A stretch of 64,000 nucleotides of DNA from Candidatus Woesearchaeota archaeon (GTDB lineage Archaea > Nanobdellota > Nanobdellia > Woesearchaeales > JACQSR01): the NCBI GenBank assembly GCA_016211215.1, contig JACQSR010000014.1, positions 14,980 through 78,979 of the forward strand. Direction: 5' to 3'. Made by a program: the position numbers and the translations under genes. Below are positions 16,536 to 46,158 of this stretch, one piece after another; position 1 is the first letter of the stretch, and every line of letters starts with the position of its first letter. The notes beneath the pieces are model-generated. The model had not been told where the DNA came from. It worked only from the letters and a program-made list of their open reading frames with translations, and did no database searches.

Positions 16536-16556
16536 AATAATGGGCCTGGGAAGATT
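16536..16556 (-). repeat. 21-bp duplication of the tRNA-Arg 3' end (att-like)
   Basis: AATAATGGGCCTGGGAAGATT is identical to 16625..16645. Confidence 0.9.
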
Positions 16557-16562
16557 ACACGC

Positions 16563-16618
16563 AAGGGTTACACCCTACGCACACCCGTACTCAAGTGAGA
16601 CATAAAGTCTCACGGACT
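16563..16618 (+). repeat. tRNA-associated structured repeat family C, copy 1
   Basis: 41/56 ungapped identity to 43364..43419, with compensatory changes in the hairpin. Confidence 0.8.
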
Positions 16619-16629
16619 TAGGAAAATAA

Positions 16630-16733
16630 TGGGCCTGGGAAGATTTGAACTCCCGATCTTCTGCTGTCTGATATCAGGGTTAGCTCCCTGATGTTAGAAG
16701 GCAGACGCCCTATCCAGGCTAGGCTACAGGCCC
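16630..16733 (-). tRNA. tRNA-Arg(TCT) with 29-nt intron at 37/38 (16666..16694)
   Basis: GGGCCTG acceptor stem, TCTGC/GCAGA anticodon stem, TTCAAAT T-loop; intron hairpin ATCAGGG/CCCTGAT with relaxed BHB. Confidence 0.92.
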
Positions 16734-40922: not shown

Positions 40923-41885
40923 ATGGTAAAGAAAACCCTGCAAAACATAGATTCAATATTAAGCCGTATTAATACTCATCCGGAATTCTCCATTTTGCTA
41001 CGGGCTGAGATTATAAAACAAATGTGGGATGAAGCTACAAGGCATTCGATAGGTATCGAAACCCAGGCCGAATCCGATGGAACCAATAAAACCAAAAGGA
41101 AAAATGGCAACGGCGAAGCGTATCAAAACTTGACTGAAGCTATAAAACACTTATCAACATATGGTATATCCACATCAGTTCTTTCTTCACTTGGCCATAA
41201 AATAGAACCGGAAGGTCAGCCAGAAAATACATTCAGGCAGGTCGAAGTGCAATTCGGTGGGTTTGCTCCCCCATCTCCAAGGGTTTTGATGCAGGACGTT
41301 GATAACCTGGTTCGCAGGCTTGAAACATTCCAACATCCGGTTGAACGTGCAATAGAAGCCCACCTTGATATGGTTAGAATTCACCCATATACAGATGGAA
41401 ACGGGCGAGCAGCTAGGTTACTGCAGAATTTCTGCCTTCAGCAAAGCGGTTATCCGCCTGCGATAATACCCTCAACAGACAGGGATATTTACATAAGTCT
41501 TATAGCGGGTGCACTTTCTGACAGATACACATTAAAAAGCTCGTACGATAAGCCAAGCGAGAAAGAAGATTTATTCAGGATGTTCATTGCAGCAAAAGTT
41601 CTTGCATCCACTGAAAGGCTGGAAAACGAGCTAAAATCAAAGAGAAGGTATTCCATAATGTTAAGTGGGGTTGATGGGAAAGGACTTGCAATAACTCTTT
41701 GTGACAACCTTAGAGGTTATGGGAAAAAAGACCCACACAGGGGTATCACTTCCGGTATTGAAAAGATGAGGGGGGGTTACGTTATAAACGTTACTGGGAA
41801 TGTTAGCTCAGATGAGTTAGATAGTATTATGGGGCCTTTGTCAAAAAGGTACCACATAAAGTACAAACTGAAGACGTTGGTTTAA
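40923..41885 (+). CDS. Fic-domain protein
   Basis: HPYTDGNGRAAR Fic motif. Confidence 0.9.
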   Translation: MVKKTLQNIDSILSRINTHPEFSILLRAEIIKQMWDEATRHSIGIETQAESDGTNKTKRKNGNGEAYQNLTEAIKHLSTYGISTSVLSSLGHKIEPEGQPENTFRQVEVQFGGFAPPSPRVLMQDVDNLVRRLETFQHPVERAIEAHLDMVRIHPYTDGNGRAARLLQNFCLQQSGYPPAIIPSTDRDIYISLIAGALSDRYTLKSSYDKPSEKEDLFRMFIAAKVLASTERLENELKSKRRYSIMLSGVDGKGLAITLCDNLRGYGKKDPHRGITSGIEKMRGGYVINVTGNVSSDELDSIMGPLSKRYHIKYKLKTLV

Positions 41886-43054: not shown

Positions 43055-43128
43055 GACAGATGAACTTCTTTCGGGGCATCCTGGTTTGCAAGTTTTTATA
43101 AAGCTGATATTTTTCTACCCTTCTTCGT

Positions 43129-43358
43129 GGGGCCATGGTGTAACTTGGCCAACATTGGGTCTTCGGGGGACTCAGCTCGGGGTTCAAATGTAAGGGCTGC
43201 GCCGTGAGAGACTGCACCTGATGGAAACAACGAGTTTCCAGCACATCCACAACTATGCGGATGCTTCACACGCTGGCAGTCAAGTGGGATTTTCAATCCC
43301 ACGGACTTTGCTGAAGTGAAGAAAAATGCAACCCTTAATGAAAGTCCCCGTGGCCCCA
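43129..43358 (+). tRNA. tRNA-Pro(CGG) with 156-nt intron at 59/60 (43189..43344)
   Basis: GGGGCCA/TGGCCCC acceptor, GGGTC-TTCGGGG-GACTC anticodon arm; BHB with TTCA/TGAA helix and AA|T and AG|T bulges restores TTCAAAT. Confidence 0.9.
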
Positions 43359-43363
43359 TATCT

Positions 43364-43419
43364 AAGGGTTGCACCCGATAGACCCCCGCAGTTAAGTGGG
43401 ACTTGCAGTCCCACGAACT
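43364..43419 (+). repeat. tRNA-associated structured repeat family C, copy 2
   Basis: AAGGGTTGCACCC...AAGTGGGAC-ttgca-GTCCCACGAACT. Confidence 0.8.
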
Positions 43420-43436
43420 GCACGATTTAAGAAATT

Positions 43437-43889
43437 CTACTTGAATATTTCCTGAATAACTTTTTCAGCAACGCTTCTCTTTTTCGGAAATGACGCAATG
43501 CTGATTCTAATGTGGAAGCAGTTGCCTGAATCCGTAACCTGAAAGATGTTTTCATCAATTAATTTGTCCTTTTCGAGGCGAATGAAGAAATCCATATCCT
43601 CATCAAGCCTCGAATGGAGCTGGCGGATTAGAAGCTGTTTTTGGTCCGCGGAAAGCTTTTCCCTGAGATTGTCAATAAATGGATTTGTATGCCTCTCTTT
43701 TGTCAGCACAACTTTGTAAATCAGGATTGCGCTTTCGTCTGCCGCAGTAGCCTTCGTGGATTCTATCGGGATTTTTTCCTGCTCAAGGTCAAACGGAAAC
43801 AGCTCTTTCAGCCTTGAAAGAACCATCTCCTCCCCTGCTTTTGCAAATACTGTCACCTGGATGGTGTGCGCGAGTTTCACGAACTGCAC
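43437..43889 (-). CDS. archaeal RNA-binding protein (COG1325, exosome-associated type)
   Basis: FFIRLEKD...TDSGNCFHIRISIASFP. Confidence 0.75.
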   Translation of the reverse strand: MQFVKLAHTIQVTVFAKAGEEMVLSRLKELFPFDLEQEKIPIESTKATAADESAILIYKVVLTKERHTNPFIDNLREKLSADQKQLLIRQLHSRLDEDMDFFIRLEKDKLIDENIFQVTDSGNCFHIRISIASFPKKRSVAEKVIQEIFK

Positions 43890-45752: not shown

Positions 45753-45887
45753 TTTGGCCCCCGAGAGGCGAGTATTCTGCGAAGTTAATAAATTTTTTGA
45801 TTTGGGTTGCCCATACCCTCACTTGTAAACTGATGTAAAGCGTGTATTAAAGCAACCTTTATAAGGCATTATTTACTCTACCATACC

Positions 45888-46154
45888 GCAGGCTAGGTTG
45901 GGAAGATAGCACTCTCCTGTCACTCCAGACGTGCTTAGGGAGGACTGAATGCCGGAATGAGGGTGCATCAGATTGCATTGGTCTTGGCCTGGACGAAGAC
46001 GCTTTGTCCTGCTGGGCTGATGCTTCTGGGAAACGTGTCAGGTCAGGAATGAAGCAGCACTAACCTTTTGCATTGGTGTCTTCAGGGTTGCAGAGCCGAG
46101 GAAAGGACAAGGCAAACCATTGCAGTTTGGTGTATTCGACTTCCGGATGCCTGC
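45888..46154 (+). ncRNA. archaeal SRP RNA (7S)
   Basis: Helix 8 GTGTCAGGTCAGGAATGAAGCAGCAC; terminal GCAGGC/GCCTGC pairing; TTTATAA promoter. Confidence 0.88.
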
Positions 46155-46158
46155 ACTT

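What the first reader, a model, noticed from the sequence alone, without database searches (positions are those of the whole stretch)
43189..43419. tRNA-associated structured repeat (family C) that appears to have become a tRNA intron
Seen: a 56-nt unit just 3' of tRNA-Pro (43364..43419) matches a unit just 3' of tRNA-Arg (16563..16618) at 41/56 ungapped positions, with compensatory pairs (A-T/G-C and C-G/T-A) in the AAGTGRGAC-N5-GTCYCACGRACT hairpin. A third, split copy lies inside the tRNA-Pro intron (AAGGGCTGCGCC at 43192; GCAGTCAAGTGGGATTTTCAATCCCACGGACT at 43276..43307, with a third covarying pair). The intron ends TGCAACCCTTA, the exact reverse complement of TAAGGGTTGCA downstream. In both tRNA loci a TGYAACCCTT motif sits 9 nt before a T-stem 3' strand. 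Inference: a tiny T-loop-targeting mobile element, tolerated either by duplicating the tRNA 3' end (Arg) or by creating a BHB and being spliced out (Pro).
Basis: partly seen in the sequence, partly recalled or inferred. Interest (0 to 1): 0.8.

Follow-up and report, generated by a model that had tools for sequence, protein, structure and literature searches.

The report
Mobile T-loop intron family in tRNAs
The repeat is one member of a family of related, structured introns sitting in the T-loop of many tRNA genes of a tiny groundwater archaeon, and stray copies beside gene ends may show how such introns spread.

Summary
In detail: 41 of 56 positions match, against a best chance match of 28 of 56 in the window.

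Window 43189-43344 is a 156-nt intron at position 59/60 (T-loop) of tRNA-Pro(CGG). It belongs to a homologous family found in 8 tRNA genes of this 1.06-Mb Woesearchaeota-type (DPANN) genome. All 8 share four features:
- a canonical bulge-helix-bulge (BHB) splice motif, built from the universal T-loop UUCR and an intronic YGAA;
- a long P1 stem;
- a conserved hairpin, AAGUG-stem-CACGRACU, with covarying pairs;
- the same position in the tRNA.

Congeneric genomes carry different family members, mini-introns or no intron in the same tRNAs. One congener has an intronless tRNA-Pro(CGG) with no flanking copy.

The two "units 3' of tRNAs" are intron-derived fragments running from the 5' splice site to the hairpin. 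Ten such solo copies were examined in two genomes:
- 9 lie at 3' ends of genes (7 tRNA genes, SRP54 and one other protein-coding gene);
- 4 are flanked by 16-53-nt duplications of the target's own 3' end;
- they occur in either orientation.

No integrase or HUH transposase goes with them. One reverse transcriptase (RT) gene is present.

Verdict: a mobile tRNA-intron family, a new variant of a known kind. How it moves is unproven.

The parts
43129..43188 (+). tRNA-Pro(CGG) exon 1 (positions 1-59). It ends with the T-stem 5' strand CGGGG and T-loop TTCAAA.
   Evidence: Sequence. ARAGORN calls tRNA-Pro(cgg) once 43189-43344 is removed. The orthologue in G001 is colinear and intronless.
43189..43344 (+). 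156-nt BHB intron at position 59/60, a member of the family.
   Evidence: Covariance model R1 scores it at 103.5 bits, E 1e-25. Alignment A1 with 7 other introns. Pair counts on A1.
43191..43203 (+). P1 stem, 5' strand (TAAGGGCTGCGCC).
   Evidence: It pairs with 43326-43337. The P1 helix is 94.7% paired across 8 introns, with 2 pairs changed on both sides. It is present in the minimum-free-energy fold.
43219..43264 (+). Lineage-specific insert (TGATGGAAAC...GCGGATGC).
   Evidence: Absent from the orthologous G003 intron. The 83 nt that contain it are 98.8% identical in two other introns of this genome.
43276..43307 (+). Conserved P2/P3 hairpin GCAGUC-AAGUGGGAU-UUUCA-AUCCCACGGACU.
   Evidence: Motif hits. 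Covariation in 14 units. Conserved in 59/60 introns of other families of the order.
43326..43337 (+). P1 stem, 3' strand (ATGCAACCCTTA).
43339..43344 (+). Intron 3' end UGAAAG. UGAA pairs with T-loop UUCA (43183-43186) as the 4-bp central helix of the BHB. AG plus U60 form the 3-nt bulge that holds the 3' splice site.
   Evidence: The helix is paired in 8 of 8 introns, with one G-C replacement in tRNA-Gln. It is seen in the MFE or centroid folds of two short members. It is not in the MFE fold of this long member.
43345..43358 (+). tRNA-Pro(CGG) exon 2 (U60, T-stem 3' strand CCCCG, acceptor 3' strand TGGCCCC, discriminator A).
43362..43419 (+). Solo copy of the intron's 5' two-thirds (C-TAAGGGTTGCACCC ... 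hairpin ... ACGAACT), 3 nt after the tRNA.
   Evidence: Best hit of model R2, at 83.3 bits. Its first 40 nt are identical to the tRNA-Glu intron on contig C30. Absent from the G001 and G003 orthologous loci.
43420..43445 (+). Further 26 nt present here but not at the G001 empty site. It may be part of the same insertion.
   Evidence: My own by-eye comparison with G001. The boundary is approximate.
16630..16733 (-). tRNA-Arg(UCU), with an anticodon-loop intron and no T-loop intron.
   Evidence: Rfam tRNA match at 54.7 bits. ARAGORN in intron mode.
16536..16556 (.). Direct repeat copy 1 (AATAATGGGCCTGGGAAGATT). It is the reverse complement of tRNA-Arg positions 58-73 plus 5 nt of trailer, lies in the native downstream context, and is not part of the gene.
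   Evidence: 21 of 21 identical to 16625-16645. Alignment score 42, against a maximum of 23 in 200 shuffles. Coordinates. Context compared with G003.
16562..16618 (+). Solo copy of the intron's 5' two-thirds, inverted relative to tRNA-Arg.
   Evidence: Model R2 scores it at 66.8 bits, E 8e-17. Absent from the tRNA-Arg(UCU) loci of G001, G002 and G003.
16625..16645 (.). Direct repeat copy 2. It is the 3' end of the working tRNA-Arg gene plus 5 nt of trailer.

Best explanation
Window 43189-43344 is an archaeal BHB intron at position 59/60 of tRNA-Pro(CGG).

It is one of at least 8 homologous, structured T-loop introns in this Woesearchaeota-type genome. The other hosts are Pro UGG, Gln CUG, Ala GGC, Met CAU, Arg CCU, Glu UUC and Leu UAA.

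Each intron carries its own portable splice signal. Its 3' end, YGAAAG, pairs with the near-universal T-loop UUCR to form the 4-bp central helix. The two 3-nt bulges (AA|N and AG|U) hold the splice sites. The T-stem and the intron's P1 stem are the outer helices. Because of this, the same intron can be spliced by the splicing endonuclease (EndA) and the exons joined by the ligase RtcB in any tRNA.

The family turns over quickly between tRNA genes and between congeneric species, through gain, loss and replacement.

The two flanking 'units' in the window are not independent elements. They are intron-derived fragments that run from the 5' splice site to the 3' base of the conserved hairpin. Such fragments have been inserted at the 3' ends of genes, in either orientation, sometimes with a 9-53-nt duplication of the target's own end.

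Shown: the family, its structure, the BHB geometry, presence/absence among relatives, and the solos with their duplications.

Inferred: that splicing actually occurs, and that movement goes through RNA. My reading is that excised intron RNA or a fragment of it is reverse-transcribed and captured at breaks or transcript ends, and that introns reach new T-loops by a related route. I put about 35% on that RNA route.
For: 1. Family. Model R1 finds 8 full-length introns and 3 partial copies in the genome.

2. Structure. Of the pair cells, 95.9% are paired. Eleven of 31 pairs have changes on both sides. None of 500 shuffles reaches these values, and slid controls give 30-48% paired.

3. tRNA restored. 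ARAGORN finds a tRNA ending at the expected base in 13 of 13 loci after in-silico removal of the 59/60 insert. These are the 8 family introns and 5 short ones.

4. Splicing machinery. One EndA catalytic-domain gene and one RtcB gene are present.

5. Turnover among orthologous tRNAs:
- Pro CGG: intron plus solo here, intron only in G003, neither in G001.
- Gly GCC: identical exons by my reading, intron only in G003.
- Pro UGG: 150 nt here, 27 nt in G003, 94 nt in G001.
- Arg UCU: none in G000 and G001, 38 nt in G002, 29 nt in G003.

6. Sequence relations. Only the Pro CGG introns are orthologous-like (97-98% core identity). Met, Arg CCU and Glu orthologues are 69-72% alike, while their nearest neighbours sit in other tRNAs at up to 93%. 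An 83-nt stretch is 98.8-100% identical in three introns of different tRNAs.

7. Solos. Ten were examined.
- Seven lie 2-4 nt after, or in the Arg case inverted just after, a tRNA 3' end.
- Two lie at the stop codon of a protein-coding gene. One of these is the SRP54 M domain.
- One lies between two promoter-like TATA motifs, read by eye.
- Four of the 10 have flanking repeats that score above all 200 shuffles: 21/21, 16/16, 16/16 and 45/53.
- The copy in native context is the outer one.
- Sense-oriented tRNA solos begin with the intron's second nucleotide, (C/G)TAAGGG.
- By my inspection, 7 of 10 end within about 10 nt after the hairpin.

8. Reverse transcriptase.
- An RT gene is present in G000, G001 and G003.
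- Across the order sample, RVT_1 occurs in 6 of 11 genomes with the family and in 28 of 140 without it.
- Fisher p is 0.017, or 0.042 without G003. Kinship was not controlled.
Against: - No RNA data. No RNA run holds the locus, so splicing, intron stability and fragment ends are all unobserved.
- The 4-bp BHB helix is not in the MFE fold of the window's own long intron.
- The RT resembles group II intron RTs (148 bits, below the 300-bit cut-off). It sits at a contig end. Nothing links it to the introns.
- G002, which has one family intron, shows no RT, though it is only 86% complete.
- Six of 10 solos have no significant flanking repeat, including the window's tRNA-Pro solo.
- No circularly permuted copy (3' end joined to 5' end) was found.
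- No population variant was visible in contigs from four metagenome runs.
- Intron cores are more alike between species (up to 97%) than the flanking genes are (66-80%). This could reflect selection on a functional RNA rather than recent movement.
- Three isotype labels (Ala GGC, Arg CCU, Glu UUC) are my reading of the anticodon loops. ARAGORN placed the anticodon introns differently.
Confidence: 0.8

Rival explanations
1. A tiny autonomous-in-trans DNA element (a MITE-like hairpin element) targets tRNA T-loops. It is moved by a tyrosine recombinase or an HUH transposase. It survives either by duplicating the tRNA 3' end or by happening to form a BHB and being spliced out.
For: - Both orientations occur.
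- Target duplications flank 4 of 10 solos.
- The hairpin has conserved flanks and a covarying stem, as in hairpin-recognising transposases.
- The duplications start inside the T-loop (positions 57-60) in 3 clear tRNA cases, with a fourth, decayed case.
Against: - No Y1 transposase was found in G000 or G002.
- Only one Xer-like integrase was found per genome.
- The duplication length varies from 9 to 53 nt, and duplications are absent in 6 of 10 solos. To my knowledge, transposases give a fixed length.
- The solos' 5' end coincides with an RNA processing site.
- Intron forms are widespread in the order, whereas solos were seen only where the family is expanded.
Confidence: 0.12
2. There is no real mobility. 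These are ancient T-loop introns inherited vertically and homogenised by gene conversion between copies. The solos arose from local replication slippage or illegitimate recombination at highly structured tRNA 3' regions.
For: - The copies are mosaic: identical 83-nt blocks sit next to differing hairpins. That points to recombination among copies.
- Introns at 59/60 are widespread in the order.
- Five further short 59/60 introns exist in this genome.
Against: - Clean presence/absence occurs with identical exons (Gly GCC, Pro CGG).
- Solos occur at non-tRNA sites (SRP54 and another gene's stop codon).
- Solos occur in inverted orientation.
- Slippage does not explain why unrelated sites receive the same unit with the same ends.
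Confidence: 0.13
3. The unit from the 5' splice site to the hairpin is a functional small RNA, for example a protein-binding hairpin. It is expressed by riding on tRNA transcripts, either as an intron or as a 3' trailer. Its conservation and its position next to tRNAs would then reflect selection for expression, not movement.
For: - The hairpin flanks AAGUG / CACGRACU are nearly invariant across families of the order, although P1 sequences differ.
- Intron cores are more conserved than the neighbouring genes.
- Solos sit where a tRNA transcript could read through.
- A stable, functional tRNA-Trp intron RNA is known in Haloferax (passages of PMC3326292).
Against: - There is no match to any Rfam family.
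- By my reading there is no C/D-box pair and no K-turn.
- Two solos are antisense to their host gene.
- Solos are not conserved at orthologous sites between congeners.
- This reading is compatible with mobility rather than an alternative to it.
Confidence: 0.15
4. The repeats of tRNA 3' ends are attL/attR scars of integrase-mediated integration of a virus or plasmid, later deleted. The intron-like unit would be a remnant of that element.
For: - Direct repeats of a tRNA 3' end are the classical signature of archaeal integrative elements (passages of PMC3293823).
- In this genome, 1.2-1.4-kb islands sit directly 3' of tRNA-Cys and tRNA-Gly.
Against: - Only 68 nt lie between the tRNA-Arg repeats, with no integrase.
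- Each repeat is the target's own sequence and differs between sites. One target is SRP54.
- A strict-pattern scan of viral contigs gave 2 hits. One has no hairpin, and the other scores E 0.35 against the model.
Confidence: 0.04

Closest known systems
Archaeal BHB tRNA introns at non-canonical position 59/60, for example pre-tRNA-Cys and pre-tRNA-Pro of Ca. Micrarchaeum ARMAN-2 (passages of PMC3239211)
   Same: The position (59/60, T-loop) is the same. The BHB splice motif is the same. The host is also a DPANN archaeon with many disrupted tRNA genes. EndA is the presumed enzyme.
   Different: The ARMAN-2 example that was tested is 13 nt long with a relaxed motif. The introns here are 91-156 nt long and share a conserved P1 stem and hairpin. 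They form one homologous family across 8 isoacceptors, with a strict two-bulge motif. The genome shows a single EndA catalytic-domain gene with a 199-aa frame, not the three-unit enzyme.
[quoted passage not shown] 2010; seen only as cited and summarised in PMC4090602, PMC4390854 and bioRxiv 10.64898/2026.10.13.758758)
   Same: Similar intron sequences occur at the same position in tRNAs of different isoacceptors. Recent gain is inferred. The mechanism is unknown.
   Different: This is a different phylum and a single position. The RNA structure is conserved across a whole order. In addition, extragenic intron fragments carry target duplications, which the passages I read do not describe for Thermoproteales. 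I did not read the original paper.
The Caldiarchaeum tRNA-Thr model: intron gain through integration of a recombinase-bearing element (PMC3293823, passages)
   Same: tRNA fragments appear as direct repeats beside a tRNA gene, and this is linked to intron gain or loss between close strains.
   Different: In that case a 1.8-kb element with a recombinase gene is flanked by a 5' tRNA fragment. Here 58-190-nt non-coding units are flanked by 3' fragments. No recombinase is present, and protein-coding genes are also targets.
SINE-like or processed-RNA retroposition (from my own knowledge, not from any call)
   Same: The units are non-coding with RNA-defined ends. Target duplications vary in length. 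Copies share a common 3' end. An RT is encoded elsewhere in the genome.
   Different: There is no poly-A or other 3' tail. No LINE-type RT or endonuclease is present, and the only RT resembles group II intron RTs. No such element is known in archaea. This is a resemblance in how it might work, not membership.

Membership tests
Archaeal BHB (EndA-spliced) tRNA intron | The insert interrupts a tRNA gene, and removing it restores a canonical tRNA. | tested here: met
   ARAGORN finds tRNA-Pro(cgg) after 43189-43344 is removed. The same holds for 13 of 13 loci with 59/60 inserts. The intronless orthologue in G001 is colinear.
Archaeal BHB (EndA-spliced) tRNA intron | Two 3-nt bulges, separated by a 4-bp helix and flanked by helices, with the splice sites in the bulges. 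| tested here: met
   UUCR:YGAA is paired in 8 of 8 introns, with one compensatory G-C. The bulges are AA|N and AG|U. The T-stem and P1 flank the motif. The helix appears in the folds of 2 short members but not in the MFE fold of the window's long member.
Archaeal BHB (EndA-spliced) tRNA intron | A splicing endonuclease and an RNA ligase are encoded. | tested here: met
   PF01974 hit at 98 bits on G000:C20. PF01139 (RtcB) hit at 572 bits on G000:C33.
Archaeal BHB (EndA-spliced) tRNA intron | Excision is observed in RNA. | not testable with these tools
   No RNA run is listed as holding the locus.
Transposing tRNA-intron family (Thermoproteales type) | Related intron sequences occur at one position in tRNAs of different isoacceptors. 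| tested here: met
   Eight isoacceptors in G000 and 6 in G003. Nearest neighbours lie in other tRNAs.
Transposing tRNA-intron family (Thermoproteales type) | Presence/absence differs between close relatives. | tested here: met
   Pro CGG, Gly GCC, Arg UCU, Pro UGG and Val GAC differ among G000-G003.
Integrase-borne integrative element (attL/attR at a tRNA) | An integrase gene lies between the repeats, and the element carries its own copy of the attachment core. | tested here: not met
   Only 68 nt lie between the tRNA-Arg repeats. One Xer-like PF00589 gene was found per genome, located elsewhere. The repeats are target-specific, and one target is SRP54.
IS200/IS605-type or REP-type hairpin element (HUH Y1 transposase) | A Y1 transposase is present in the genome, and insertion makes no target duplication (the second point is from my own knowledge). 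| tested here: not met
   PF01797 gives 0 matches in G000 (84% complete) and in G002. Duplications flank 4 of 10 solos.
Retroposon (target-primed reverse transcription) | An RT is available, target duplications vary in length, and copies share a 3' end. | tested here: inconclusive
   An RT is present in 3 of 4 congeners, but it resembles group II intron RTs. Duplications of 9-53 nt occur in a minority of solos. The common 3' end at the hairpin is my own inspection. There is no tail, no endonuclease, and no link to the RT.
Box C/D small RNA housed in a tRNA intron | C box RUGAUGA and D box CUGA form a K-turn (from my own knowledge). | tested here: not met
   UGAUGG occurs only in the lineage-specific insert of 4 introns. 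A CUGA near the 3' end occurs in 2 of them. This is a by-eye reading.
Any Rfam family | A covariance-model match. | tested here: not met
   There is no match over 43100-43460 at E up to 5. The gathering-threshold scan of the whole window finds only tRNA-Arg and SRP RNA.

The most novel reading that the evidence does not exclude
Excised BHB-intron RNA behaves as a small retroposon in an archaeon.

In this reading, the intron or its fragment from the 5' splice site to the hairpin is copied by the genome's only RT. The conserved hairpin would mark where copying starts. The cDNA is then captured at transcript or gene 3' ends, and by a related route in other T-loops.

That would make this the first system with physical footprints of how archaeal tRNA introns are gained.
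Probability: 0.3. Interest if true: 0.85.

Novelty: new variant of a known kind. Interest (0 to 1): 0.66.

Why it matters
How archaeal tRNA introns arrive in new genes is an open question. [quoted passage not shown] It found no general route of arrival (bioRxiv 10.64898/2026.10.13.758758, abstract and passages).

This genus offers what those data sets lacked:
- one sequence family at one position;
- close relatives that differ gene by gene;
- extragenic copies whose ends and flanking duplications constrain the mechanism.

The finding also explains why standard tRNA finders recover only 15-17 tRNAs in this genome. It provides a covariance model for finding the hidden ones. Finally, the portable design, in which the intron's YGAA pairs with the universal T-loop, explains why position 59/60 recurs as an intron site.

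Tried and rejected
- ARAGORN with default settings finds no tRNA in the window. In intron mode it finds 17 in the genome and misses all T-loop-intron tRNAs.
- An Rfam scan at E up to 5 over 43100-43460 found nothing.
- A strict-pattern scan of viral contigs gave 2 hits. One has no hairpin. The other, on a phage-like 6.7-kb contig, scores E 0.35. I treat both as chance.
- The same pattern in species-representative genomes hit 11 stretches. Eight are contigs of one Nanoarchaeia assembly. One is a Woesearchaeota assembly. One is labelled Methanosarcinales but is identical to the G041 locus. Two are bacterial hits without a hairpin.
- The metagenome scan gave 3 hits. All have the same arrangement as the G003 Val, Lys and Cys solos, so it added nothing new.
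- Sequencing runs: no RNA holder is listed.
- Contigs of 4 groundwater DNA runs confirm the junction from intron through exon 2 into the solo. A 134-nt contig covers 43258-43391 with 0 differences in 2 runs. The contigs show no alternative allele, but contigs cannot show rare variants.
- A search for circularly permuted copies (intron 3' end joined to 5' end) found only normal T-loop contexts and chance hits inside genes.
- I considered K-turn, C/D box, hammerhead and tRNA-like minihelix readings of the hairpin, by eye only. None fits, except that an 11-13-bp minihelix ending at ..ACU(U) could in principle be an RNase Z-like substrate. This was not tested.
- Two alternative base pairings at the hairpin foot (GUG:CAC versus AGU:ACU) could not be told apart, because those columns never vary.
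- The supplementary tables of the cited papers were not seen. They may list DPANN intron positions that bear on the novelty claim.
Full report
**1. The observation**

The two 56-nt units (43364-43419 and 16563-16618) match at 41 of 56 ungapped positions. Scanning that 56-mer over both strands of the window gives 35 of 56 at 43252, which is the intron copy. After that the best match is 28 of 56.

**2. What the host is**

The window lies on contig C3 of a 1.06-Mb, 35-contig genome with 45% G+C and 84% completeness. It carries an archaeal SRP RNA. Loci of congeneric genomes carry record titles 'Candidatus Nanoarchaeia archaeon' and 'Candidatus Woesearchaeota archaeon'. Groundwater metagenomes hold the window.

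Standard tools find only 17 tRNAs (ARAGORN) or 15 tRNAs (Rfam). That already suggested many disrupted tRNA genes.

**3. What the repeat is**

A motif search for the hairpin found 9 good copies in the genome. Reading their flanks showed that six lie inside inserts in the T-loops of tRNA genes. Each insert follows TTCRAA and precedes T plus the T-stem 3' strand. An nhmmer search added two more.

The eight inserts align over their whole length. A covariance model built from them (R1) finds exactly these eight at 77-111 bits, plus three partial copies.

After in-silico removal of the insert, ARAGORN finds a tRNA ending at the expected base in all 8 loci. It does the same in 5 further loci with short (13-34 nt) inserts at the same place. 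So at least 13 tRNA genes of this genome carry an insert at position 59/60.

ARAGORN names Pro CGG, Pro UGG, Gln CUG, Met CAU and Leu UAA. For three genes that also have anticodon-loop introns, I read Ala GGC, Arg CCU and Glu UUC by eye, using the intron-poor G003 orthologues. ARAGORN placed those anticodon introns differently.

**4. Structure and splicing signal**

On the 8-sequence alignment, a structure of T-stem, 4-bp helix, P1 and P2/P3 gives these figures:
- 95.9% of cells are paired, against 86.7% in shuffles.
- 11 of 31 pairs have changes on both sides.
- 0 of 500 shuffles reach the observed values.
- Partners slid by 1-3 columns give 30-48% paired.

The 4-bp helix joins T-loop UUCR with the intron's YGAA. 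It is paired in 8 of 8 introns. tRNA-Gln has G-C where the others have A-U.

On the 5' strand this helix is followed by three unpaired bases, AA|N. On the 3' strand it is followed by AG|U. The outer helices are the T-stem and P1. This is the strict two-bulge, four-base-pair BHB geometry. I recall that definition from the literature, and the same motif type is named in PMC3239211. Cutting after the second bulge base on each strand leaves UUCRAA plus U, a normal 7-nt T-loop.

Folding shows the whole arrangement in the MFE of tRNA-Gln and in the centroid of tRNA-Glu. For the window's long intron, the T-stem, P1 and the hairpin form but the 4-bp helix does not.

The genome encodes one EndA catalytic domain with a 199-aa frame, and RtcB.

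Introns at 59/60 are known in the DPANN archaeon ARMAN-2. Single-subunit DPANN endonucleases have been linked to heavy tRNA gene disruption (PMC5829648, passages).

**5. The hairpin**

In 14 units the upper four pairs of the hairpin change on both sides (GC, CG, AU, UA). The flanks AAGUG and CACGRACU hardly vary.

The same hairpin sits in 59/60 introns of other families of the order, whose P1 sequences are different. It matches no Rfam family. Its role is unknown. Its conservation argues that it does something, whether in splicing, in movement or as an RNA in its own right.

**6. Distribution**

Model R1 hits 11 of 151 genomes sampled from the order. Outside the window's genus there are only 1-2 copies per genome. 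Within the genus, G000 and G003 have 11 matches each, G001 has 2 and G002 has 1.

**7. Turnover among the four congeners**

| tRNA | G000 (window genome) | G001 | G002 | G003 |
|---|---|---|---|---|
| Pro CGG | intron with a ~46-nt insert, plus a flanking solo | no T-loop intron, no solo | not examined | same intron without the insert, no solo |
| Gly GCC | no intron | not examined | not examined | 135-nt family intron; exons identical to G000 by my reading |
| Pro UGG | 150 nt | 94 nt, another subtype | not examined | 27-nt mini-intron, little more than P1 |
| Arg UCU | none | none | 38 nt | 29 nt |
| Val GAC | 34-nt unrelated intron | not examined | not examined | none, plus a solo |

On the model-aligned core, only the Pro CGG introns of G000 and G003 look orthologous (97-98%). 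The Met, Arg CCU and Glu pairs are 69-72% alike. Nearest neighbours lie in other tRNAs: G003 Met with G000 Ala at 93%, and G001 Pro UGG with a genome of another family at 88%.

An 83-nt block is 98.8-100% identical in three G000 introns whose hairpins differ. Flanking genes of G000 and G003 are 66-80% identical.

Intron sequences therefore move or recombine between tRNA genes. They are also either exchanged between lineages or strongly conserved.

**8. The solo copies**

A second model covering the 5' two-thirds of the unit (R2) finds 3 solos in G000 and 7 in G003.

*tRNA-adjacent solos in the same orientation as the tRNA.* Six of the seven tRNA-adjacent solos are of this kind: Pro in G000, and Val, Lys, Cys, Phe and Ala in G003. 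Each begins 2-4 nt after the discriminator base, with the intron's second nucleotide followed by TAAGGG.

*The inverted tRNA-Arg solo in the window.* It lies between two perfect 21-nt copies of the tRNA's positions 58-73 plus 5 trailer bases, with 68 nt between them.

*G003 Val.* It reads tRNA, TTA, a complete unit, then a second copy of positions 60-73 plus TT (16 of 16).

*G003 Lys.* It has a 16 of 16 repeat. The two copies are followed by different discriminator bases, G and A.

*G003 SRP54.* A unit of a second intron subtype lies antisense at the last codons of the SRP54 gene, between 45 of 53 matching repeats that encode the protein's tail.

*The solo on G003 contig C30.* It follows another gene's stop codon, with a 9-nt repeat that is not significant on its own.

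In each significant case the outer repeat copy sits in the native downstream context. Four of the 10 solos have repeats above all 200 shuffles, and six do not. By my inspection, 7 of 10 solos end within about 10 nt after the hairpin.

The second subtype also starts like the 5' end of a T-loop intron, that of G003 tRNA-Ala. So the solos share two features: a 5' end at a splice site and a 3' end at the hairpin base.

**9. How it may move**

Several findings argue against the DNA-element explanations:
- No Y1 transposase was found in G000 or G002.
- Each genome has a single Xer-like tyrosine recombinase.
- The viral-contig scan gave only chance-like hits.
- The duplications are each target's own sequence and vary in length.

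These argue against an integrase or a classical transposase.

A 5' boundary that exists only at the RNA level, targets at gene 3' ends, and variable duplications together fit capture of a reverse-transcribed intron RNA.

The genome does encode an RT. It matches RVT_1 and scores best against the group II intron RT model, but below that model's cut-off. I recall its LGNLTSQ motif as typical of diversity-generating retroelement RTs.

Across the order sample, RT genes occur in 6 of 11 genomes with the family and in 28 of 140 without it. Fisher p is 0.017, or 0.042 without G003. Kinship was not corrected for, and I assume the two 151-genome samples are the same set.

This is suggestive only. Nothing ties the RT to the introns, six solos lack duplications, and no permuted copy of a circular intron was found. 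I rate the RNA route at about one in three.

**10. Comparison with what is known**

- Related introns spread over different tRNAs are known from Thermoproteales, with the mechanism unknown. I did not read the original 2010 paper.
- A recombinase-bearing element was proposed for one Caldiarchaeum tRNA.
- A 2026 Asgard census found no general arrival route.
- My literature searches listed no description of a structured 59/60 intron family in Woesearchaeota, nor of extragenic intron fragments with target duplications. Supplements were closed, so such a list may exist unseen.

**11. Verdict**

This is a mobile tRNA-intron family, a new variant of a known kind. It carries unusually informative footprints for an open question.

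Noticed in passing
G000:C25:31103-32470 and G000:C30:8395-9630: Islands of 1.2-1.4 kb lie directly 3' of tRNA-Cys and tRNA-Gly in this genome. The G003 orthologous sites have a solo unit or nothing. By eye the islands encode small toxin-antitoxin-like proteins (a PemK/MazF-like ORF, and a nucleotidyltransferase/HEPN-like pair). tRNA 3' flanks seem to be general insertion hot spots here.
   Followed up: partly
G000:C12:11575-11640; G003:C40:61625-61700; G003:C30:3350-3420: A second unit type: an 8-bp hairpin CAUUUCUC...GAGAAAUG, then AGCAAAGAGU, then the same conserved hairpin. There are three copies outside tRNA genes. Its 5' part resembles the start of the T-loop intron of G003 tRNA-Ala.
   Followed up: partly
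window 43219-43264; G000:C21 and G000:C25 introns: An insert of about 46 nt beginning UGAUGGAAAC, with its own small hairpins. It is nearly identical in three introns of different tRNAs and absent from the G003 orthologue. A related insert sits in the tRNA-Met intron. A different 53-nt insert is shared by the G003 tRNA-Gly intron and the solos beside tRNA-Phe and tRNA-Ala.
   Followed up: partly
G000:C23:15809-16702 (locus L048 3310-4203, minus strand): The genome's only RT gene, with a 297-aa frame, lies about 80 nt from a contig end. Any template or target repeats would lie off the contig.
   Followed up: partly
window 45886-46156: Archaeal SRP RNA (Rfam RF01857, 105 bits).
   Followed up: no
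window 40923-41885: A 320-aa ORF contains HPYTDGNGRAARL, which I recall as the Fic-domain motif. It was not searched.
   Followed up: no
G001:C5 and G003:C10 tRNA-Arg(UCU) loci; G000:C13 tRNA-Phe: Large inserts lie in the D-arm region of these tRNAs, about 95 nt in G001 tRNA-Arg. Several tRNAs carry two or three introns. Position 59/60 is only one of several intron sites in this genus.
   Followed up: no
G003:C49:11536-11660 (locus L029): Between the tRNA-Lys repeats, behind the solo, lie more intron-like scraps. One is a TTTTGAAAG|T junction, and another is a mini P1 hairpin TAAGGGTGCTAACCCTTA. Together they suggest repeated insertions at one site.
   Followed up: no
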